Shown: positions 2,637-33,961 of the stretch, one piece after another
How positions within the stretch are numbered: position 1 is the stretch's first letter
How the letters are laid out: every line of letters starts with the position of its first letter
IMG/VR virus record: IMGVR_UViG_3300012971_000927
Origin: an uncultured virus (IMG/VR IMGVR_UViG_3300012971_000927)
Lineage: Duplodnaviria > Heunggongvirae > Uroviricota > Caudoviricetes
DNA: 64,000 bases
Reading direction: 5' to 3' (one strand)
The notes under the pieces: model-generated
Databases searched by the model: none
What the model was told of the DNA's origin: nothing
Seen by the model: the letters and a program-made list of their open reading frames with translations, nothing else
Translations under genes and position numbers: made by a program

Positions 2637-2708
2637 GCCCCCATAGCATAATGGAAATGCGACGGCCTCTAAAGCCGATCTACGGGGGTTCGATTCCCCC
2701 TGGGGGCG
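2637..2708 (+). tRNA. Amber-suppressor tRNA (anticodon CUA)
   Basis: Acceptor GCCCCCA/TGGGGGC; D arm GCAT-AATGGAA-ATGC; anticodon arm CGGC-CT CTA AA-GCCG (anticodon 2669-2671); T arm GGGGG-TTCGATT-CCCCC; discriminator G; no encoded CCA. Confidence 0.88.
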
Positions 2709-2780
2709 CTATAAATCTGCTTTACAACCCGCAAGCAGGAACACTACAATAGGAAGGTGCAAAGAAGAGGAGGAACAGTC

Positions 2781-5673: not shown

Positions 5674-6135
5674 GCGACCAAAACCTGTTGCGGGAAGCCG
5701 CCAACCTGCTGGTGAACGCGGACGAGGCCATCAACGCCTGCCCCGACTGTTTCCCGGACGCCTACTGCCTCAAACACGCGGAGGAGTGGGGCCAGGCCAT
5801 GCACAAACTCCGCGTAGCCCTGGGGAGGACGGGGCCAGATGAAGCCAAAGATTGTCAGTGAGCAAGTCGCCCGTCGTATGATCGTGTCCGGTGAAGCGGG
5901 CTACTGGTCGCCCTTCGCCAACCCGCCCATCGAACACGATGAAACGACCATCGTGCTGGTTCAAGGGAAGTTCTACTTGGTGCCCGCCGAGTATTTCCAT
6001 GTCCAGGCGCTAGGGCCGTGCGGCGTTGGACATGACGGCAGGATGAAGGGACTGCACAACATCACCATCAACGAAAGTCAATTACCCGACTTAGTGGCTT
6101 TGATCCAACAGGAGATCGCGCGTTATGGAAAATAA
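5670..6135 (+). other. Two small overlapping hypothetical ORFs (5670-5861, 5839-6135)
   Basis: Overlapping start/stop codons in operon arrangement. Confidence 0.5.
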
Positions 6136-10325: not shown

Positions 10326-10354
10326 TTGACAATCCTCCCCACCGCCCGTAAAGT
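10326..10354 (+). promoter_or_regulatory. Sigma70-type promoter of the pth-like gene
   Basis: TTGACA-17 nt-TAAAGT, followed by RBS AAGGAG at ~10380. Confidence 0.65.
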
Positions 10355-10391: not shown

Positions 10392-10754
10392 ATGCACTAG
10401 GTTGACGAAGATCGGACCCCCTTCTGCTACCTGTTTGTCCGCACGGACTTGAGCATCCCGCAACAGGTAGTCCAGGCCAGCCATGCAGCTTACGAGGCTG
10501 GTCGTTTTCACGATTCCACTCTGGACCACCCCCATTTCGTTGTCTGCGGCGTCAAAAGCGAGGCCGATCTGCACAAGATCGTGTCCAGGCTCGACTGCGC
10601 CGCCATTCCCTACCGCATCTTCCGCGAGGCAGACCGCCAGGACGAGGCCACCGCGCTCATGACGGCCCCCGTCTTCGGGGATCAGCGTCGGCTGTTCCGC
10701 CGCTATCGCTGCCTGGGGAGCAACGGGTTCGCGCCTCTGGAGGTTGAAACCTGA
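10392..10754 (+). CDS. Pth2-like peptidyl-tRNA hydrolase with in-frame UAG at codon 3
   Basis: RBS-ATG CAC TAG GTT...; frame continues FCYLFVRTDLSIPQQVVQASHAA...TALMTAP, typical of the Pth2 fold; no ATG/GTG/TTG between the TAG and the first conserved strand. Confidence 0.75.
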
Positions 10755-10760
10755 TGTCCC

Positions 10761-10927
10761 GCCCCTGTGGTCTAACTGGAGATGACATCGCTTGGACTAA
10801 CTTCTGGCGGCTTTGCGTTGCCTGGCGGAAGTACAACGTGGGGCAACGGCTTGTCGTGAGAGGCCCTGGCAAGTAGGCCCATGAAGCGAAAGATGCGATA
10901 GTGGTGGTTCGAGTCCATCCGGGGGCA
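10761..10927 (+). ncRNA. tRNA-like RNA with ~100-nt structured insertion in place of the anticodon loop
   Basis: Acceptor GCCCCTG/CGGGGGC plus A; D arm GTC-TAACTGGAGAT-GAC; stem TCGC/GCGA; T arm GGTGG-TTCGAGT-CCATC; 167 nt in total. Confidence 0.7.
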
Positions 10928-10972
10928 CTGGTCTTTAACAAGCGTGCAAGTCACGCAGAAAAGGAGAAGAAC

Positions 10973-11458
10973 ATGAACGCGACTGAAACCCAGGTCCACC
11001 GCAGCAAGTGGGGTTACCATCCCTGCGGCAAGGAGATCGCCAAGAAGCTCCGCACCATCAACCGGGTCTATAACGCGGCCCTGCACCTGGAAGCGGCCCA
11101 CGAACGCTGGGCAGGCAAGCTCCCAGAGAACCGGGTGCAGTACCGTGCGGTACGCGATGCCGCCGGTCAGAAGGTGGGGCGTGAGAAGGTGCTGGACGGC
11201 AAGGGCCAGCCGGTGCCCTTGCCGGAGCCGGTGCGGTGCCCGATCTTCGAGTTCACCTACCACTGGCCCGGCGATGGCAAGCGGCCATATCGCATCAGCC
11301 GAGTGGGGGAAGCCATCCTCCAGGCCGCACGGCAGGCCCGGACTCCGGTGGCCAACGCGGAGGACGTGAAGCGGCTGGCCTTCGGCTACGGCGACGGGTC
11401 GGAGGAGGCGGTCTGCCGGCTGTACGGGCAGTGTGCGGCCTGGGAAGCTTCACGGTAA
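10973..11458 (+). CDS. Hypothetical phage protein
   Basis: RBS AAGGAG; HRSKWGYHPC motif. Confidence 0.7.
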   Translation: MNATETQVHRSKWGYHPCGKEIAKKLRTINRVYNAALHLEAAHERWAGKLPENRVQYRAVRDAAGQKVGREKVLDGKGQPVPLPEPVRCPIFEFTYHWPGDGKRPYRISRVGEAILQAARQARTPVANAEDVKRLAFGYGDGSEEAVCRLYGQCAAWEASR

Positions 11459-12288: not shown

Positions 12289-12338
12289 ATAAAGAGGAGG
12301 GCAGGTTTACAGACTTCGATTTTTTGAGTAAAATAGAC

Positions 12339-13376
12339 ATGCCGAGATATAGAGTGGTGGTTACCGCCTCCTGGGAGGTCGAAAGCGACCTGGACGGGGA
12401 GCAGATTCTCAAGCAAGCCGTGGAGCAGGTTTGTTTTCGTGGCGAGGAAAAACGAAACTTTCGCCTGCTAAAGCGGCTGGATCGCCTCAAGGATAAACCC
12501 AAAAAAATTCGTGTTGGCGAATTCCGCCCCGAAGAAGTCATCCCCTACATCACCAAGGAGGACGAAAAGCGGACATACATCATCGACGGCAAGTCCTACG
12601 CTGTTCGGATGAACTCGCACCGCTACTTTATCTTTCGGGAAAGTTTGACCTGCGCCGCCTGCGGCCTGGTCGGCAGCAAGATGCTCCTTGAGCAACACCC
12701 CGCCGACAAATCACCGCATTTCAACCTCTACGCCGAGGAGAACGGCAAGCTGGTTCTTATGACCAAGGACCACATCCAGGCCAAAGCCTACGGTGGCGAG
12801 GACCGGCACTCGAACTACCAAACGATGTGTGTGATCTGCAACAACCTCAAGGGGTCGGCGTCCATAACGCTGGACGGCATACGCGAGTTGCGGAGAATAT
12901 ACAACGGGCATGTGGGCCACGTCACCAAAAAGGAGCTTTATCTGCTGATTCAAGAGGCCAAGGCACGTCTGGCACATGCCCGTGGCCCCGGCAACAAGCG
13001 CATAAGCGCCAAACAGCGCCACATTCACGCCGCCGACCAGAAGGCCAAGGAAGCCGAGGTTGTTTCAAGCTGTGACATAAACGTGTGGCGAGTCGGCCCG
13101 GATTTGGTGGGGCGTTCGGTGTACGAGCGGGTCGAAGAAGGAAAACATATCGCCTGCATCAAGAAAGGTATGGTCCTGCAACCATCAGGAGCGCAGGGCC
13201 GCAAGGTTGTCATCAAACTGGACGAAGGCCAGGATTGCACGGTTGCCCAGGGCCTATTGGATTACAAGGAAAACCTCATCCCTGTGAGCAGTGACCATGC
13301 CGCGACGGAAAAGAAATCTGCTGGAAGCCGGGAACAAGCTGGCGTCAATCCGCCAGTTCCTTCAATCGCTGGTTGA
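12339..13376 (+). CDS. HNH endonuclease domain protein
   Basis: CAACG...MTKDHIQAKAYGG...NYQTMCVICNNLKG; TTTACA-17-TAAAAT promoter ends just before the ATG (probably leaderless). Confidence 0.8.
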   Translation: MPRYRVVVTASWEVESDLDGEQILKQAVEQVCFRGEEKRNFRLLKRLDRLKDKPKKIRVGEFRPEEVIPYITKEDEKRTYIIDGKSYAVRMNSHRYFIFRESLTCAACGLVGSKMLLEQHPADKSPHFNLYAEENGKLVLMTKDHIQAKAYGGEDRHSNYQTMCVICNNLKGSASITLDGIRELRRIYNGHVGHVTKKELYLLIQEAKARLAHARGPGNKRISAKQRHIHAADQKAKEAEVVSSCDINVWRVGPDLVGRSVYERVEEGKHIACIKKGMVLQPSGAQGRKVVIKLDEGQDCTVAQGLLDYKENLIPVSSDHAATEKKSAGSREQAGVNPPVPSIAG

Positions 13377-13848
13377 GTATGACGCCCGTTTTTGCGAGGG
13401 CAAGGGCGGTGGGATTATTGACTACTCGCGGCTCATACTTGAGAAGGGCACGCCTTTCCTGGGCAGCACGCCCTCCTCCAAGTTCCCCGATGCCAAGCGG
13501 TGGTGGACGATCAGCCGGCCCCAGATCAAGCAGTGCTTCTATAATTCGCAGTTGTTCGCCCTCTCCTGCGACCAGGGCACCTACTACGAGGGGTATGCTT
13601 TCACTTTCTTCTTTCCGTTCCATCACGCCTGGGTCGTGTTGGATGGCAAGGTGGTGGATTTCACCCTGGAGGCAGTCGATTTGGTCGAGCGGCGTGACAA
13701 AATCAAGCCGGCGGGGCCTGATGAAGTAACAGCGTATCTCGGCGTCGAGATACCCACGGACGCACTTCGGAAGTACGTCCTGAAATATAAATCTGCGGAA
13801 CCCTACGCCCAGATGTACCATTTGGGTTCCAAGGAGCGGTTTTTCTAG
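13297..13848 (+). CDS. Hypothetical protein (Cys-His-Asp pattern, transglutaminase/papain-like possible)
   Basis: KQCFYNS...YYEGYA...HHAWV...VVDFT. Confidence 0.55.
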   Translation: MPRRKRNLLEAGNKLASIRQFLQSLVEYDARFCEGKGGGIIDYSRLILEKGTPFLGSTPSSKFPDAKRWWTISRPQIKQCFYNSQLFALSCDQGTYYEGYAFTFFFPFHHAWVVLDGKVVDFTLEAVDLVERRDKIKPAGPDEVTAYLGVEIPTDALRKYVLKYKSAEPYAQMYHLGSKERFF

Positions 13849-13863
13849 TTAAGGAGAACTATC

Positions 13864-14598
13864 GTGGATTTAGTGGTCTACCCGGTGTTCCTGTGGCTCA
13901 GCCTGCCCTTCTGGATTCTCATTCTCTGCTGGTTCGCCTTCCTGTTCTGGTGCGTGTCCTACCGGCACGGCTTCATCGCCCTGAGTTCGTTGCTGGTGCT
14001 GGCCTGCTTGCTCCAGTTCTTTGGCGACATCCCGGTGCTGGTCTACCTCTGGCATAATCCACTCGTCGCCCTCGCTTGCCTGGGGGTGTGGTTGGCCATG
14101 TCGGTGCCGTGGGCCTTTACCAAGTGGTGGTTGTACGTCCGGGATAATAGCGGACGTTACGATGAAATCCTGGGGGAGTTCTTTGAAACCCCCGCCCACC
14201 GCGAATGGCCCAAGAACCCCAACCAATTCAACCTCAACCAGAAGGTTGAGTGGAAGCAATATTTCGACCAGCACGCCAACGTTGACGACTGGTATGAATA
14301 TAACCGGGTGGAGTTCGACCCCAGCCCCCGCACCCACAAGGCCGACATCATGACCTGGATGATGTTCTGGCCCTGGTCGCTGCTCTGGACCCTGCTCAAC
14401 GATCCGATCCGCAAGTTCTTCCGCCATTGCTACTATTACATGGTGGGGTGGCTGGAGCGCATCCGCGACTACTACTGGCAGGACAAACGCGGCCACATGC
14501 CCACCCAGGCGGAAATGGAAACTTACTACCAACAGCAACGGGATGCGGCCCAGGAACGCCGCAAGCAGCCGCCGGATGGCGTTACCCGGTTGGAGTAA
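13864..14598 (+). CDS. Hypothetical membrane protein
   Basis: Several Trp-rich hydrophobic helices; RBS AAGGAG. Confidence 0.7.
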   Translation: MDLVVYPVFLWLSLPFWILILCWFAFLFWCVSYRHGFIALSSLLVLACLLQFFGDIPVLVYLWHNPLVALACLGVWLAMSVPWAFTKWWLYVRDNSGRYDEILGEFFETPAHREWPKNPNQFNLNQKVEWKQYFDQHANVDDWYEYNRVEFDPSPRTHKADIMTWMMFWPWSLLWTLLNDPIRKFFRHCYYYMVGWLERIRDYYWQDKRGHMPTQAEMETYYQQQRDAAQERRKQPPDGVTRLE

Positions 14599-14625
14599 AC
14601 AAACCGACCCTGGCGCGGTACAATG

Positions 14626-14655
14626 AGGGGAGGCTCGGCCTCCCCTTTTTTGTTT
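14626..14655 (+). terminator. Intrinsic terminator
   Basis: AGGGGAGGC/GCCTCCCCT stem plus T tract. Confidence 0.7.
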
Positions 14656-14667
14656 GAGGAGTCACCA

Positions 14668-16095
14668 ATGGATATTCGTCCCCTTCCCGATAAGCAGGGC
14701 GTGGGTTTCTTTTCGCTGGTCCCGATTTCCGACGAGGAAAAGCAGGCAAACGCGCAGGCCACCGGCTGGCGTTACCGGGAGGAGGTCGCTGGCCGCTACC
14801 ACAATTTCTACGTCACGCCGGGTTGCTACTACTGGCCGAAGCATGACTGGTACGACAGCAAGATTCACGAGCCGTGGTCGGTGGTGGATGCCTTCTCCCC
14901 GAACCTCGATAAAGAACTTCATGTCGGCCACCTGCGTAACCTGGCCATCGCCCTGTCCCTGTCCCGAATGCTGAACCAGCAGGCACAATTCGTGGCCCTG
15001 TTGGGGAGCGGCAAGGGCCTCCTCAAGAAATCCAAGGACGCCCTCAAGCGGTGGCTGCGGTTTGTAAATTACAAACCCAAATTGTACTACGACTGCCTGA
15101 TGCCGATGGACGAAGATATTGTTGTCCGACAAAAAATGCTAATGGCCAAGAAGCAACTGGACGGCTCGACTAAGGACGAGGAATGCACCGTTTGGATCAA
15201 CCCAGATGGCGAACCCATTGTGGTGATCCGTGGCGATGGGCGTCCCCTCTACACCTTTCACGACATCGCCTTCGCCAAGACCGTGGGGCCGACCCATTAT
15301 ATTACCGGCCAGGAGCAGCGCGACCATTTTAAGCGGCTCGGCCTGGGGGACCGTCACTACCCGATGGGACTGGTGCTGGGGAAGGACGACACGGGCACCT
15401 GGAGCAAGATGAAAAGCCGGACGGGCGATGCCCTGTCGGCCCAGGAAGTTCTCGACATCATCGTGGAGAAGCTGAAGGCGGGGAAAAGCAAACTAAAGAA
15501 AAACAAGCAGACCGACAAGTACGCCAACCTGGACGAAAATGGCTTTGACGACATGCACCGCCTGGCATGGAACGTCCTGGCGTGGAATTTTCTGGCGTGC
15601 AGCCGGTCCCAGGATGTAAAATTCGACCCAGACCTGTGGACCGACCCCAACCGTGGCGGGCTGTACATAACTTACACCTACGCCCGGTGCGTGTCGGCTC
15701 TGCGTAAGGCCGGCAGTAATGCCGATTTTGCTTTCCAGGCCCCGTGGCAGGCCAAGCTGATCGCCCAGGGCAAACCTGATCCGAAGGACTGGTGGAATGC
15801 GGACGGCACCCACAAAGGCGATCCTGACCCGCACTACGATCTGACCCAGGAGGACGCCAACATCCTCGGCTACAGTGAGTATCTTCACCACTATCGCTGG
15901 CGGGCCATGCAATCCCTGGACCCCGCTCACCTGGCCAATTACGCCCACGATTTGGCCCGCAAGCTCGCCCATGCGTATCATGGCGAGAAGATTGCTGGAG
16001 GCCGGTACGGGTTCCAGCACGCGATCAACTACTCCATGCGAAACCTGTGGCACTGCCTGGTCAATCTGGGCATGTTCCCCCTGGAGGAAGTATGA
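14668..16095 (+). CDS. argS: Arginyl-tRNA synthetase-like protein (compact/divergent)
   Basis: VVDAFSPNLDKELHVGHLRN (HIGH), KMKSRTG (KMSKS-like), GLYITYTYAR, C-terminal LGMFPLEEV. Confidence 0.8.
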   Translation: MDIRPLPDKQGVGFFSLVPISDEEKQANAQATGWRYREEVAGRYHNFYVTPGCYYWPKHDWYDSKIHEPWSVVDAFSPNLDKELHVGHLRNLAIALSLSRMLNQQAQFVALLGSGKGLLKKSKDALKRWLRFVNYKPKLYYDCLMPMDEDIVVRQKMLMAKKQLDGSTKDEECTVWINPDGEPIVVIRGDGRPLYTFHDIAFAKTVGPTHYITGQEQRDHFKRLGLGDRHYPMGLVLGKDDTGTWSKMKSRTGDALSAQEVLDIIVEKLKAGKSKLKKNKQTDKYANLDENGFDDMHRLAWNVLAWNFLACSRSQDVKFDPDLWTDPNRGGLYITYTYARCVSALRKAGSNADFAFQAPWQAKLIAQGKPDPKDWWNADGTHKGDPDPHYDLTQEDANILGYSEYLHHYRWRAMQSLDPAHLANYAHDLARKLAHAYHGEKIAGGRYGFQHAINYSMRNLWHCLVNLGMFPLEEV

Positions 16096-28631: not shown

Positions 28632-28975
28632 ATTGACGTATTTATAATTCGCCGCCGCGTTCCTACATACGGGAAAGGAGGTTTATGAAAAAGGTAACCG
28701 TATGACCGCCACCAAGAAAACGATCCGCATTGATCTCACCAATAAAAGCCTTGCCGAAGCAGTGGCTATCCTCAACGCCGTCTTCTCGGCCCGCCACGTC
28801 CTCGAACAAAAGGGCTTGAAGGTTTACGTTCGCAAGAAAAAAACCGCCCCGAAGCCCTGATGTACAAAAATTCACATTAGAAAATTTGGTTTACAACCAG
28901 AACTTTCCTCGCTATCATCTGGAGTAGCCTCCGACGCCGGAGGTCCGACCGGGTTTCTTAATTTGCGAGGTCCGC

Positions 28976-29386
28976 ATGGAGAACAACACCCACGACCCCC
29001 AGGGCCGCGTCTTCGACAACGAGATCGCGTTCCTGGCTGCCGAGTCCCGCTACACGGGCGAGAACGGCAAAAGCAGTGGCTACGTCGTGACCCAGGGGGA
29101 GAAGGTCTTCTGGGTTTGGGCCGCAAACCGGGACCACGCCACCGGGCTGGTGTCGCGGCGGCTGGCGCTGCTGACGGTGATTCCCTACCAGCGCACCAGG
29201 GCGCTTGCCGCCCTGCCGGAGAGCGAAATCCTGGCCCTGTTCGGCTCGCTGTCGCAGGACTTGCAGGACAAGGTTCGCCGCCACCTGAACGGCCACTCCT
29301 GCCCCTATTGCCCCGATAAGCTGGGCAGCCGCCCCGACCTGACCGCCCACATAAAGCGGAAGCACCCGGCCCAAGCAAAATCGTGA
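28976..29386 (+). CDS. Hypothetical protein with C-terminal C2H2 zinc finger
   Basis: CPYCPDKLGSRPDLTAHIKRKH. Confidence 0.65.
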   Translation: MENNTHDPQGRVFDNEIAFLAAESRYTGENGKSSGYVVTQGEKVFWVWAANRDHATGLVSRRLALLTVIPYQRTRALAALPESEILALFGSLSQDLQDKVRRHLNGHSCPYCPDKLGSRPDLTAHIKRKHPAQAKS

Positions 29387-31272: not shown

Positions 31273-31366
31273 AAACAAGAATCCCGAAAAAATCGTGAAC
31301 ACCTTCGCCGGTCAGGGGTGTTAGAGGTACAGGGCCACGCGGCCCACCACCATCAGGAGAACACAC

Positions 31367-32521
31367 ATGGCACAGCGCGTCGTCAACTTCCGTGGCGGGG
31401 AGCAGATCGTCGTCCCCTGGCCCCTGGAAAAGATCATCACGTCCCACAACCCCCGCCGGCCTGTCCGCCGGCTCCAGCGCCAGGGCTACATCCCCCTGGA
31501 GTTGGTTCACAATCTGGCGCTCAGCGCCGACCCGGCCAAGAACGCCGAGTACGTCACGCTGATGCACCAGGAACCGGCCATCGAAACTTTGGCCCGGTCC
31601 ATCAAGGCTATCGGCCAGTGCCAGCCGATCATCCTACGCACCTACCGCGCCAACGTCGGCAAGGAAGATGCCACGGAGCCGGGCGGCAAGGCCAAGATCA
31701 TCTACGAGCAGCGCGGTGGCATCGCCGCCGGAGAGCGGCGCATCCTCGCGGTGGCCCTGCTCGAAGCCGAGCGCAAGATCGCGGTCAGCAAGGGCGAAAC
31801 CCCGAACCACGACAAGCCCTGGACTGTCGATGCTATCGGCTGGGACATGACCGTGGAGCAGGCCAGCGACATCGGCTGGGACGAGAACGACCAGCGCGAG
31901 CCGATGACCGACCTGGACTACGGCGAGCGGTTCGACGCCATGCTCCGGCAATATAACCCCGCGACCCAGAAGGCATACACCATCGGCCAGGTGGCCGACA
32001 AGTTCGGCAAGAACTACCATTGGGTCCGGGGCCGGGCGGCGCTGCCCTACCTGCCGGTGGAGCATCAGCAGCAGGTCGAGGACCGCACCTGCAACATCGT
32101 TGAAGCGTGCAACCTGGCCCTCAAGTACAAGGAACAGGCGCTCGCCGCCGAGGGAGAGCAGGCCGATAAGGTCCGCGAGGGCAAGGGCGCTGCCTCCGTC
32201 GTCCCCGACCTGGGCGTGGGCGAGCAGCAGCAACAGCAGACCGGCGGTGAGGTTCCCAGCCAGCCCCAGCCCGCCCAGGGCACAGGCAGCACGGAGAAAC
32301 TGCCGGGCCGCAGGGAGCGCCGGGCCACGCTGGCGCTCTCGGAGGTCCACGCCCTGTTCGACGCCACGCCGGAAGCCAACGTTGAGCGCCGCAAGGCGTT
32401 CGCGGAGGTCATGGGGCTGTCGCTGGATCAGGCCGCGAAGGACTCCATCACCCGCAAGGAAGCCGTGGAAGCCAAGAAGGCTCGCCAGGCCGAGCGCAAG
32501 GCCCGGAAAGGGGCGGCGTGA
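31367..32521 (+). CDS. ParB/Srx-like protein with HTH
   Basis: LARSIKAIGQCQPIILR, IAAGERRILA, ENDQRE, TIGQVADKFGKNYHWV. Confidence 0.75.
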   Translation: MAQRVVNFRGGEQIVVPWPLEKIITSHNPRRPVRRLQRQGYIPLELVHNLALSADPAKNAEYVTLMHQEPAIETLARSIKAIGQCQPIILRTYRANVGKEDATEPGGKAKIIYEQRGGIAAGERRILAVALLEAERKIAVSKGETPNHDKPWTVDAIGWDMTVEQASDIGWDENDQREPMTDLDYGERFDAMLRQYNPATQKAYTIGQVADKFGKNYHWVRGRAALPYLPVEHQQQVEDRTCNIVEACNLALKYKEQALAAEGEQADKVREGKGAASVVPDLGVGEQQQQQTGGEVPSQPQPAQGTGSTEKLPGRRERRATLALSEVHALFDATPEANVERRKAFAEVMGLSLDQAAKDSITRKEAVEAKKARQAERKARKGAA

Positions 32522-32680
32522 AAAAACCTCAAAGCGTTAGCGTATAACACGCTGGAGACGTAGGGGGCGGCTTCCACGCCTGAAAGAAAAAGGCAAAATT
32601 TACTTTACAACTGGCCTCATCCTCGGTATAAAGAGGCTGAGGCCAGTTTCCCGGACCCTGACGTGAACGAGGGCTAGGCC

Positions 32681-33739
32681 ATGCTCGAAGGCATCGAAGC
32701 TGTTCGCCTGGAGAGACAGCAAGAAGTCAAGTGCCTGGCGGTGATGCGCACGGGCAACCCGCTCCGCGACGAGTGGAGCGTGTACCTCGGCCAGAAACAC
32801 GGACGAAAGTTTCGGGACGAGTTGTTCAACTATTACAACCCGAAGAAGAAAAGGGAGCAGCCTGAAGTCTACGGCCTGAAGCCGGGCCAGCTTCCCAACC
32901 CGTTCGGCTGCATCCCCGCCTTCCGCATGAACGAGTGGCGGCGCGATCTGCCCCTTATTCTGGCGGTGCGCGATGTAGAGTGGGACATGACCTGCTCTTA
33001 TATCAACTTGGCCAGGGACTTGGCCAACCGTTGGGCGCGGATGGCCCAGAGCAACGTCATGCTCACGCCGGATGTCTTCGGCCAGGAAGCCTGGATGGCG
33101 CTTCGCAACGCCATCTACGGCTACAGCAAGGAGAACATCGAGTTTTCCACCTACGCCACCCGCGTCATCCGCAACCATCTGCTGACGGTCTACACCAACG
33201 GCAGCCCGGCCCGCTATTTCTCCAGGGAGGAGCGGAAGCTGCTGAAGGAATTCAACCTGCGGCGCAGCCAGGCCGGCGACGACGTGCAGGTTGAGCAGAT
33301 CGCCCGCGCGATGGGCCTCAGCGACGACCAGATCACCAGCATTTGCAAGATGCTGGTCACCACGGTCAACTACTCCCAGATCGGGCGCGGCAAGCACCGC
33401 GACCTGCTGGACGAACACGACCATGACGTGACGGCGCTGCGGCACGGTGCCTGCCGTGACCGCACCGATACCCCGGAGATGTGCGCCCTCCAGCCGATGC
33501 TGGAGAAGCTGAAGCAGGCGCACCTGACCCCGTTCGAGGAAGACGTGTTCCTCACCAGCCTGCCGGGCTGCGACTACTACGGGTGGCAGTCGGACGTGGC
33601 CAGCCGCCACATCAACCCCCGGACCAACAAGCCCTACACGCGGGCCGGCGCTGCCATCGCCCTGGAAAGCGCCTACATTAAGTTGCGGCGGGTGGTGCGC
33701 CAAGACCCGTTCGACGGCTACAACGTGCGGAAGAAGTAG
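32681..33739 (+). CDS. Sigma-70-family RNA polymerase sigma factor-like protein
   Basis: Region 2-like QEAWMALRNAIYGY....EFSTYATRVIRNHL; region 3-like EQIARAMGLS; region 4-like C-terminus. Confidence 0.7.
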   Translation: MLEGIEAVRLERQQEVKCLAVMRTGNPLRDEWSVYLGQKHGRKFRDELFNYYNPKKKREQPEVYGLKPGQLPNPFGCIPAFRMNEWRRDLPLILAVRDVEWDMTCSYINLARDLANRWARMAQSNVMLTPDVFGQEAWMALRNAIYGYSKENIEFSTYATRVIRNHLLTVYTNGSPARYFSREERKLLKEFNLRRSQAGDDVQVEQIARAMGLSDDQITSICKMLVTTVNYSQIGRGKHRDLLDEHDHDVTALRHGACRDRTDTPEMCALQPMLEKLKQAHLTPFEEDVFLTSLPGCDYYGWQSDVASRHINPRTNKPYTRAGAAIALESAYIKLRRVVRQDPFDGYNVRKK

Positions 33740-33961
33740 ACGCTGTAATTTCATTGAGGACGCCGTGAAGAAAGAAAAACGACCGGCCTGGAAACCTTCG
33801 GCAGACGTGGCGGTAGTGCCGATGCCCGATGGCACTTACCGCCGCCTCTGCCATCGGCACTGGCACGCCCGCGTCGAGGGCGGCGAACCCCTGCCCCGTT
33901 CCTGCGCCGCCGCCAGCGCTGGGGACGGCTGCGAGGACTGTGCCCAGGAGAAGACCACCTA

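What the first reader, a model, noticed from the sequence alone, without database searches (positions are those of the whole stretch)
10761..10927. tRNA-like RNA whose anticodon loop is replaced by a ~100-nt structured domain
Seen: intact acceptor, D and T arms starting 6 nt after the pth stop. TCGCTT (10788-10793) can pair with AAGCGA (10884-10889), or TCGC with GCGA (10895-10898). The insert holds crossing or competing helices (ACTTCTG/CGGAAGT, CGTTGCC/GGCAACG, GGCC/GGCC). Knowledge: it is too short for a typical group I/II intron and lacks the GGGG start and G3-U70 alanine identity of tmRNA. Inference: a new tRNA mimic, a tRNA with a minimal intron or embedded ribozyme, or a decoy against anticodon nucleases.
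Basis: partly seen in the sequence, partly recalled or inferred. Interest (0 to 1): 0.8.

Follow-up and report, generated by a model that had tools for sequence, protein, structure and literature searches.

The report
Phage tRNA gene with large insert
A soil phage carries a gene shaped like a transfer RNA whose anticodon loop is interrupted by about 100 bases of no known kind; it is real, but it is a one-off, so it may be a tRNA mimic, a new small intron or a broken gene.

Summary
Window 10761-10927 (+) matches the Rfam tRNA model above its curated cut-off (35.8 vs 29 bits). Acceptor, D and T arms are intact and 103 nt lie between the two strands of the anticodon stem. No other Rfam family matches, and ARAGORN finds no tmRNA.

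The gene lies 6 nt after a PTH2-type peptidyl-tRNA hydrolase gene in a large soil phage that also carries an amber-suppressor tRNA.

No conservation was found. The closest relatives (PTH2 92% identical) lack the whole cassette. No copy of the insert turned up in any collection searched. Its folding is only marginally better than shuffled sequence. No known splicing route fits, and trial excisions do not settle on one anticodon.

Best reading (0.4): the RNA is cut out of the PTH2 transcript, keeps its insert, cannot decode, and acts, if at all, as a tRNA mimic. Rivals are a new small intron (0.2) and a recently disrupted, dying tRNA gene (0.3). No RNA data exist, so expression and splicing are untested.

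The parts
10326..10354 (+). sigma-70-like promoter match (TTGACA, 17-nt spacer, TAAAGT) upstream of PTH2
   Evidence: 10 of 12 hexamer matches; 1 site found against a mean of 0.2 in shuffles. No terminator-like site lies between PTH2 and the next gene. This is a consensus match only.
10392..10754 (+). PTH2-family peptidyl-tRNA hydrolase gene. It starts ATG CAC TAG GTT, so an in-frame amber codon lies at 10398-10400. Stop TGA at 10752-10754.
   Evidence: Pfam PF01981, 24 bits against a cut-off of 23, E 4.8e-5. An RBS precedes the ATG. The TAG sits at the same place in homologues L001, L003 and L017.
10761..10791 (+). 5' part of the tRNA body: acceptor 5' strand 10761-67, positions 8-9 at 10768-69, D arm 10770-86, anticodon-stem 5' strand (A)TCGC 10787-91
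   Evidence: Rfam alignment, ARAGORN drawing, coordinates.
10792..10894 (+). 103 nt between the two anticodon-stem strands. ARAGORN's arbitrary 'intron' is 10796-10891 (96 nt). The stretch holds helices 10800-06/10826-32 and 10816-23/10841-48, which cross; a competing nested hairpin 10801-10862; and a small hairpin 10862-79.
   Evidence: No Rfam family matches it. No homologue was found.
10895..10927 (+). 3' part of the tRNA body: anticodon-stem 3' strand GCGA(T) 10895-99, short variable region, T arm 10903-19, acceptor 3' strand 10920-26, discriminator A 10927. No CCA is encoded.
   Evidence: The 3' 22 nt are identical to a phage tRNA-Lys(CTT) in L014.
10944..10972 (+). Conserved leader of the next gene: small hairpin GCGTG/CACGC followed by an AAAAGGAG ribosome-binding site. 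It is present in relatives with and without the cassette.
   Evidence: Alignments.
10973..11458 (+). 161-aa protein of unknown function. In L003/L004 it is read in one frame with PTH2.
   Evidence: Searches found no family. The model had mean pLDDT 67 and no fold match. The fusion is shown.
14623..16095 (+). Divergent arginyl-tRNA synthetase-like gene. It is context only, a possible partner of a tRNA body whose 5' half resembles tRNA-Arg.
   Evidence: Pfam tRNA-synt_1d and DALR_1. TIGR00456 scores 77 bits against a cut-off of 262. PDB ArgRS chains match at E 3e-9. HVGH and SKMKSR motifs are present.
2637..2709 (+). Canonical amber-suppressor tRNA (anticodon CTA). It is context only.
   Evidence: (64.6 bits).

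Best explanation
This is a genuine tRNA-derived gene carried as a strain-specific accessory cassette. It sits in the translation module (suppressor tRNA, PTH2, ArgRS-like gene) of a large soil phage that uses amber suppression for some genes.

Inferred steps: it is transcribed with PTH2 from the promoter-like site at 10326-10354. The intact acceptor, D and T body lets RNase P, 3' processing and CCA addition release a tRNA-shaped RNA of about 167 nt.

The 96-103 nt in the anticodon loop fit no known splicing route, so I think the insert stays in. The RNA then has no normal anticodon loop and cannot decode. If it is useful, it works as a tRNA mimic: it offers the acceptor/T/D 'elbow' to tRNA-binding proteins while the insert replaces the decoding end. 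Candidate partners are the phage's own ArgRS-like enzyme, PTH2, EF-Tu, the ribosome, or host tRNA-directed defences.

Shown: the tRNA shape, the position of the insert, the operon context, and the cassette's presence or absence among relatives. Inferred: transcription, processing, lack of splicing, and any function.
For: The tRNA body is complete. Rfam scores 35.8 bits despite the insert. U8, A14, G18G19, the T-loop TTCGAGT with its G53-C61 pair, and a 7-bp acceptor stem are all in place (which positions count as universal is recalled).

The insert lies exactly at the distal tip of the anticodon arm, the one place where extra RNA does not disturb the L-shape.

No self-splicing or self-cleaving family matches at E <= 10. 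No bulge-helix-bulge motif sits at the insert borders. Of 315 trial excisions, 191 still score as tRNA and six tie at the top with four different anticodons (AAG, GAG, GGG, GGA), so the sequence marks no splice sites.

A promoter-like site precedes PTH2 and no terminator follows it.

Related phages carry tRNAs with abnormal anticodon loops at the same module. L001/L009 have one with loop ACAACGT, which can close into a 7-bp stem with a triloop, and one with an 8-nt loop. L012 has one with a 9-nt loop. The suppressor tRNAs beside them are canonical.

The first 19 nt plus the acceptor 3' strand are identical to a tRNA-Arg(TCG) in L016. An ArgRS-like gene that keeps HVGH and SKMKSR motifs lies 3.7 kb downstream.

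The element is identical in contigs from three soil runs, X1, X4 and X6. X6 belongs to a later (2025) study, but its contig covers only 10620-10835.
Against: The element is a single sequence, so there is no covariation and no conservation of the insert. The closest relatives (L003/L004, PTH2 92% identical) and co-occurring strain variants lack the whole cassette, so it is dispensable.

The insert's folding is not clearly better than shuffles (z -1.65 to -1.79; 19 of 300 and 13 of 200 shuffles).

There are no RNA data. A recent insertion into a working tRNA gene would look the same.

The tRNA-Arg link rests on one genome hit. The 3' half instead resembles phage tRNA-Lys (one search is weak, E 0.2). 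The ArgRS-like gene was not found in the one related phage record that could be searched.
Confidence: 0.4

Rival explanations
1. It is a decoding tRNA interrupted by a new kind of small intron, about half the size of the smallest group I introns. The intron is removed either by its own catalysis or by unknown phage or host enzymes, giving a 72-75 nt tRNA.
For: The position in the anticodon loop is where known tRNA introns lie (passages of PMC4033280). Excision restores a tRNA that ARAGORN accepts up to 115% of its default thresholds. The insert contains a possible pseudoknot of two 7-8 bp helices, and such crossing pairs occur in 2.8% of shuffles. Alternative pairings of TCGC with two GCGA sites could bring the junctions together.
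Against: No match to group I or II introns or to any self-cleaving ribozyme in Rfam at E <= 10. At 96-103 nt the insert is only about the size that PMC4033280 gives for the group I catalytic core alone. There is no BHB motif at the borders and the host signals are bacterial. No unique splice product emerges, and none of the six best excisions gives an Arg or Lys anticodon to match the body. The insert was found in no other gene or genome, so there is no sign of mobility.
Confidence: 0.2
2. It is a tRNA gene recently disrupted by an illegitimate insertion or duplication and now has no function. It is on its way to deletion, as has already happened in the sister strains.
For: The cassette is absent from the closest relatives and from co-occurring variants. 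The insert has no homologue and no clearly non-random structure. It holds short internal repeats resembling parts of the tRNA itself: TGGACTAACT against the D arm, a 16-mer against the 3' end, and GCCCATG against the acceptor. The syntenic stretch in L005/L006 aligns weakly with the element but has lost the T arm.
Against: Those internal repeats are not significant against shuffles (p 0.09 and 0.49). Every conserved tRNA position outside the loop is intact. By my estimate a random insertion has roughly a 1 in 10 chance of landing in the 7-nt loop of a 72-nt gene. If the weak L005/L006 similarity (p 0.008-0.034) is real homology, the insert predates that split. The tRNA body has then been kept only in this lineage, which argues for selection.
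Confidence: 0.3
3. The stretch is protein-coding. Read with TAG as sense, an ATG at 10754 overlaps the PTH2 stop (TGATG) and opens a frame that runs through the element into the next gene.
For: With TAG read through, ORF 10754-11458 is open with one TAG. In L003/L004 PTH2 and the next gene form one frame. L005/L006 have an 81-aa ORF at this place.
Against: GC3 of this frame is 0.60 against 0.76-0.84 in neighbouring genes. The next gene keeps its own conserved RBS and ATG in all relatives. BLASTP against the L005 ORF matches only the last 16 residues, which are the conserved leader (E 0.014). By my estimate an open 73-codon frame is expected in about 1 frame in 5 at this G+C content. A coding reading does not explain a 35.8-bit tRNA match.
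Confidence: 0.03
4. It is a miniature tmRNA-like rescue RNA: a tRNA-like domain plus a pseudoknot plus a short internal reading frame, working with the neighbouring PTH2.
For: The order tRNA end, helix, pseudoknot, short frames ending in TGA or TAG, T arm recalls tmRNA. It lies next to a peptidyl-tRNA hydrolase gene.
Against: ARAGORN finds no tmRNA at default settings. At 80% thresholds it gives only a different, implausible call marked 'Tag not identified'. There is no Rfam tmRNA match at E <= 10. The element has a full D arm and an anticodon stem, and C3-G70 instead of G3-U70. None of the possible tags ends in a hydrophobic degradation signal.
Confidence: 0.02

Closest known systems
Bacterial and plastid tRNA genes with group I introns (tRNA-Leu(UAA), tRNA-fMet, tRNA-Arg(CCU), tRNA-Ile(CAU))
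   Same: A bacterial-type tRNA gene interrupted in the anticodon loop. Exon pairing in the anticodon stem is retained.
   Different: The insert is 96-103 nt and has no match to Rfam Intron_gpI at E <= 10. The smallest natural group I intron I recall is about 200 nt (Azoarcus; recalled, not from a call). No splice sites are marked.
Archaeal and eukaryal pre-tRNAs with protein-spliced introns (bulge-helix-bulge)
   Same: The intron size range (under about 100 nt according to PMC4033280) and the location in the anticodon loop.
   Different: There is no BHB motif at the borders. The context is a phage with bacterial-type signals: a sigma-70-like promoter, a GGAG ribosome-binding site, and sigma factor, AlgH and ParB homologues. 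No splicing endonuclease or RNA ligase was seen among the 56 window ORFs scanned with Pfam.
tmRNA
   Same: tRNA-like ends enclosing a structured insert that may include a pseudoknot. It has a translation-rescue neighbour (PTH2).
   Different: It has a full D arm and anticodon stem, no G3-U70, and about half the length. ARAGORN and Rfam give no tmRNA call.
Theta (minimal HDV-like) ribozymes next to phage tRNAs
   Same: A small structured RNA physically joined to a tRNA in phages that use suppressor tRNAs (abstract and discussion passages of bioRxiv 10.1101/2023.06.13.544163).
   Different: Theta ribozymes lie beside the tRNA and are proposed to process 3' trailers. Here the extra RNA is inside the anticodon loop, and no HDV-like family matches.
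Engineered 'tRNA scaffold' RNAs and bacterial YrlA/Y RNAs (tRNA-like modules fused to another domain)
   Same: They work like the best reading here: a tRNA body gives processing and stability while another domain replaces or accompanies the anticodon arm (recalled knowledge).
   Different: The tRNA scaffold is a laboratory design. In YrlA the tRNA-like part is internal and the RNA ends form the Ro-binding stem (recalled). No Rfam Y RNA or YrlA match was found.
Phage tRNAs with altered anticodon loops
   Same: Related phages (L001/L009, L012) carry tRNAs with 7-nt non-U33, 8-nt and 9-nt loops in the same PTH2 module.
   Different: Those are tRNAs of normal length. Here about 100 nt replace the loop.

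Membership tests
tRNA (Rfam RF00005) | Cloverleaf scoring at or above the curated gathering score | tested here: met
   35.8 bits against 29, model positions 1-71. ARAGORN with introns calls it.
tRNA (Rfam RF00005) | 7-nt anticodon loop with U33 and a readable anticodon | tested here: not met
   103 nt lie between the anticodon-stem strands. Trial excisions give four different anticodons at equal score.
tRNA (Rfam RF00005) | Aminoacylation and use in decoding | not testable with these tools
   Needs charging assays or tRNA sequencing.
Group I intron in tRNA | Conserved P3-P9 core recognised by Rfam Intron_gpI; typical size of about 200 nt or more | tested here: not met
   No match at E <= 10 in 10650-11050. 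The insert is 96-103 nt.
Group I intron in tRNA | Self-splicing with guanosine | not testable with these tools
   Needs an in-vitro transcript assay.
Archaeal-type BHB tRNA intron | Two 3-nt bulges separated by a 4-bp helix at the exon-intron borders | tested here: not met
   My script found 10 relaxed candidates. None puts the two bulges at the borders of the insert next to the anticodon stem.
tmRNA | tRNA-Ala-like ends (G3-U70), no anticodon arm, resume codon and tag frame, pseudoknots | tested here: not met
   ARAGORN -m finds nothing at default settings. There is no Rfam match. The pair is C3-G70 and a full D arm is present.
Known small self-cleaving ribozymes (hammerhead, HDV-like, twister, pistol, hatchet, hairpin) | Match to the family covariance model | tested here: not met
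   No such family at E <= 10 in a 401-nt search with lax filters.
Y RNA / YrlA | Match to the family model; Ro-binding stem formed by the RNA ends | tested here: not met
   No match at E <= 10. The RNA ends here form a tRNA acceptor stem.

The most novel reading that the evidence does not exclude
The element is a functional RNA of a kind not yet described in phages. One possibility is a natural 'tRNA-scaffolded' RNA: a chargeable tRNA body without an anticodon, perhaps served by the phage's own truncated ArgRS-like enzyme and working with PTH2 on ribosomes during amber-suppression-dependent gene expression. The other is a tRNA carrying a new class of self-processing intron of about 100 nt. The abnormal anticodon arms of tRNAs in the same module of related phages would then belong to one theme, non-decoding tRNA-like RNAs in phage translation-takeover modules.
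Probability: 0.2. Interest if true: 0.8.

Novelty: new variant of a known kind. Interest (0 to 1): 0.45.

Why it matters
[quoted passage not shown] A phage tRNA body with a non-group-I insert of about 100 nt in the anticodon loop would, if expressed, be either a new small intron or ribozyme or a natural tRNA-scaffolded RNA. Either would bear on how large phages that use amber suppression manipulate translation.

There is also a practical point. Default tRNA and Rfam scans missed the element, so similar genes may be overlooked routinely in phage genomes. With a single sequence and no expression data, the case is still open.

Tried and rejected
**Homologues of the insert or the whole element.** Nothing was found in any of these searches:
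- blastn of 10400-11300 against 50,697 phage records
- an exact 26-mer of the insert in IMG/VR
- a gapped D-arm...T-loop pattern and an 18-mer of the 5' end in IMG/VR
- plasmids
- the window itself, where the element is single-copy
- local alignment against eight related loci. The best result was a 12 of 14 match to an L001 spacer, p 0.035, not significant after multiple tests.

**Relatives found through PTH2.** There was 1 IMG/VR contig, 11 metagenome loci and a 595-kb uncultured phage. None carries an insert-bearing tRNA, by ARAGORN with introns or by my own tRNA covariance model run with filters off.

**Other searches that gave nothing.**
- The protein downstream of the element found no relatives in IMG/VR.
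- No whole genome is held for the window.
- No RNA holder was listed among 6 runs from 4 studies. Contigs cannot show splicing.
- In one search, X5 and X6 gave no contig over parts of the stretch, which says nothing.

**Origin of the insert from the tRNA itself.** Internal repeats were seen but were not significant.

**Parent tRNA.** The 5' 19-mer in 185,579 genomes gave one tRNA-Arg(TCG) and one non-tRNA chance hit. The 5' half against phages gave only chance hits. The 3' half gave weak tRNA-Lys hits.

**Neighbouring 161-aa protein.** No family was found and the Atlas gave no usable hit. The model had mean pLDDT 67 and no fold match at E <= 0.001.

**Literature.** Six full-text searches found no description of a non-group-I insert of about 100 nt in a phage or bacterial tRNA anticodon loop. 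For most of those papers I saw only listings and the starts of abstracts. I read passages of PMC3984707, PMC4033280 and the Theta ribozyme preprint. I opened no supplements.

Full report
**What is there**

Window 10761-10927 (+) begins 6 nt after the TGA stop (10752-10754) of a PTH2-type peptidyl-tRNA hydrolase gene. Searched alone, the region matches the Rfam tRNA model over its full length. The score is 35.8 bits against a gathering score of 29, E 4.9e-6, and 103 nt are skipped between the two strands of the anticodon stem.

ARAGORN with introns allowed draws a 72-nt cloverleaf:
- a 7-bp acceptor stem (6 Watson-Crick pairs and 1 G-U)
- a D arm with GG in its loop
- a 5-bp anticodon stem, ATCGC/GCGAT
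- a T arm with loop TTCGAGT
- discriminator A
- a 96-nt "intron" at 10796-10891

No CCA is encoded. The same holds for the other tRNAs of this phage group.

Standard scans miss the gene. ARAGORN at default settings and both whole-window Rfam scans report only the amber-suppressor tRNA at 2637-2709.

**What it is not**

In the 401-nt search with lax filters, no Rfam family other than tRNA reached E <= 10, apart from a meaningless HOTAIR_2 match (E 0.55, 14.2 bits against a gathering score of 60). That excludes group I and II introns, tmRNA, Y RNA/YrlA and the known small self-cleaving ribozymes.

ARAGORN finds no tmRNA at default thresholds. At 80% thresholds it gives only a different, implausible call marked "Tag not identified". 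The acceptor stem has C3-G70, not G3-U70.

A script search for bulge-helix-bulge motifs found none at the insert borders.

The stretch is unlikely to be coding. With TAG read through, a frame is open from an ATG at 10754 into the next gene. However, its GC3 is 0.60 against 0.76-0.84 in neighbouring genes. The next gene keeps its own conserved ribosome-binding site and ATG.

**Is the insert a structured domain?**

The evidence is only marginal.
- The insert folds at -38.8 kcal/mol, z -1.79, and 13 of 200 shuffles fold as well. My own test gave z -1.65, 19 of 300.
- Two helices of 7-8 bp (10800-06/10826-32 and 10816-23/10841-48) cross as an H-type pseudoknot. Such a crossing pair arises in 2.8% of 2000 dinucleotide shuffles.
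- The minimum-energy fold instead uses a long nested hairpin that shares the second helix.
- TCGC at 10788-91 can pair with either of two GCGA sites.

With one sequence, none of these alternatives can be tested by covariation.

**Context**

The window has 59% G+C, and most of its genes lie on the + strand. Gene families found:
- ParB-like protein and a sigma factor
- ArdC and an SNF2 helicase
- glycosyl- and methyltransferases, and a macro domain
- an HNH endonuclease
- a divergent ArgRS-like gene

PTH2 homologues lie in viral contigs of 176 to 214 kb, in a 595-kb uncultured phage, and in cultured jumbo phages.

The PTH2 gene starts ATG CAC TAG GTT. An in-frame TAG at this same place is seen in three other lineages: L001, L003 and L017. 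With the canonical CTA-anticodon tRNA at 2637, this indicates amber suppression of selected genes.

The window as a whole is not TAG-recoded. Of 64 predicted genes, 13 end in TAG. Reading TAG as sense raises coding density only from 0.690 to 0.701.

A sigma-70-like promoter match precedes PTH2, and no terminator-like site follows it. The tRNA-like gene is therefore probably co-transcribed with PTH2. This is an inference.

**Conservation**

I found none for the insert.
- The two closest relatives (L003 and L004, PTH2 92% identical, from two different metagenome contigs) go straight from PTH2 into the conserved leader of the next gene. In them the PTH2 frame has no stop and runs into the 161-aa downstream protein.
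- Laying contigs from four soil runs showed two forms. The element-bearing form has 0 differences in X1 and X4. A 216-nt contig from a later (2025) study, X6, is identical over 10620-10835. One variant contig each in X1 and X4 skips 10728 to 10973 with 54 other letters in between.
- L005/L006 (76% identical) have 214 nt with an 81-aa ORF at this place.
- That L005/L006 stretch aligns weakly with the element: p 0.008 against shuffles and 0.009-0.034 against real window segments. It lacks the T arm and does not keep the insert helices. Protein-level similarity is limited to the shared leader. I treat this possible homology as unresolved.
- All other searches for the insert or for an insert-free twin of the tRNA were empty.

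**Identity of the tRNA body**

The first 19 nt occur in one tRNA among the 185,579 species genomes held, a tRNA-Arg(TCG) of a Saccharibacteria assembly. That tRNA also has the same acceptor 3' strand and discriminator. The other hit in that search was not a tRNA.

The D loop has A at position 20, an arginine identity element (recalled). The last 22 nt are identical to a phage tRNA-Lys(CTT). The 3' half weakly resembles mycobacteriophage tRNA-Lys (83.8% identity, E 0.2).

Of 315 trial excisions, ARAGORN called 191 a tRNA. Six 96-nt excisions tie at the top with anticodons AAG, GAG, GGG and GGA (three times). A tRNA-Arg(TCG) form appears only one threshold step lower. ARAGORN's "tRNA-Pro(GGG)" label is therefore arbitrary, and the sequence does not mark splice sites.

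An ArgRS-like gene lies 3.7 kb downstream. It keeps HVGH and SKMKSR motifs but lacks the N-terminal domain. This is a lead, not evidence of a partnership. It was not found in the 176-kb related record.

**Odd tRNAs in relatives**

L001/L009 carry two canonical suppressor tRNAs upstream of PTH2. Downstream of it they carry two paralogous tRNAs with abnormal loops: ACAACGT, which lacks U33 and can close into a 7-bp stem with a triloop, and the 8-nt TGTACTAA. These four are the only tRNAs found in the 176-kb record.

L012 has a tRNA-like gene just upstream of PTH2. It scores 32.7 bits with my model and has a 9-nt loop containing CTA. ARAGORN and the Rfam scan both missed it.

The insert shares the 9-mer GTACAACGT with the first L001 loop. 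It shares TTGGA...CTAA with the second. I cannot tell whether this is meaningful.

**Verdict**

I think the RNA most likely keeps its insert and cannot decode. It would be a strain-specific accessory tRNA mimic in a translation module (0.4). A recently disrupted tRNA gene (0.3) and a new small intron (0.2) are live rivals. Coding and tmRNA-like readings are unlikely.

The literature I could search describes no such insert in bacterial or phage tRNAs. PMC4033280 states that bacterial tRNA introns are group I or II (passages). Theta ribozymes lie beside phage tRNAs and are proposed to process their 3' trailers, so they are not inside the tRNA (passages).

The element is unusual, but the case rests on a single sequence with no expression data. 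I therefore give it moderate interest.

Noticed in passing
window 10392-10400; L001 2965-2976; L003 2464-2472; L017 about 5979-5990: The PTH2 gene has an in-frame TAG as its 3rd or 4th codon (M-(x)-H-TAG-V) in four lineages whose G+C ranges from 42% to 59%. This looks like a conserved amber 'gate' that makes PTH2 synthesis depend on the phage suppressor tRNA.
   Followed up: partly
L001 3780-3853 and 3914-3987 (also in L002 and L009): Two paralogous tRNAs lie downstream of PTH2 with an identical acceptor stem and abnormal anticodon loops. One loop is ACAACGT (C33; it can form a 7-bp stem with a triloop). The other is the 8-nt TGTACTAA. The two suppressor tRNAs upstream are canonical.
   Followed up: partly
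L012 2844-2914: A tRNA-like gene lies just upstream of PTH2 (32.7 bits with my model). Its 9-nt loop CTTCTAAAC contains CTA, so it may be an expanded-loop amber or quadruplet reader. ARAGORN and the Rfam scan of the loci both missed it.
   Followed up: partly
L003 2449-3339; L004 41-929: In the closest relatives the PTH2 frame has no stop and runs into the 161-aa downstream protein, giving one fused frame. The internal RBS and ATG are retained. In the window the tRNA-like cassette supplies the stop.
   Followed up: partly
window 14623-16095: This is a divergent arginyl-tRNA synthetase-like gene of 490 aa. HVGH and SKMKSR motifs and a DALR domain are present, and the N-terminal domain is missing. 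It scores 77 bits against the 262-bit cut-off of the argS model.
   Followed up: partly
window 10831-10839 compared with L001 3799-3807: The 9-mer GTACAACGT in the insert equals the anticodon loop plus flanking bases of the first odd tRNA of L001. The insert start TTGGACTAAC resembles the anticodon arm of the second. This is a post-hoc observation of unknown meaning.
   Followed up: no
window 28886-29386, 31295-32521, 32663-33748, 13291-14598: Reading TAG as sense extends further + strand genes upstream through an early TAG (codons 14, 10 and 5), or joins two ORFs. Even so, the window as a whole is not TAG-recoded: 13 of 64 genes end in TAG.
   Followed up: no
L005 441-683; L006 same place: An 81-aa ORF with a strong RBS occupies the site of the cassette. 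Its DNA aligns weakly with the element (p about 0.01-0.03) but has no T arm.
   Followed up: partly
window 10877-10928: GCCCATG inside the insert can replace the true 5' acceptor strand. That gives an alternative 52-nt acceptor/T-arm minihelix, scoring 24.1 bits with my tRNA model.
   Followed up: no
window 12300-13376: A free-standing HNH endonuclease gene lies 1.4 kb downstream of the element. I did not test whether it is linked to the variability of this locus.
   Followed up: no
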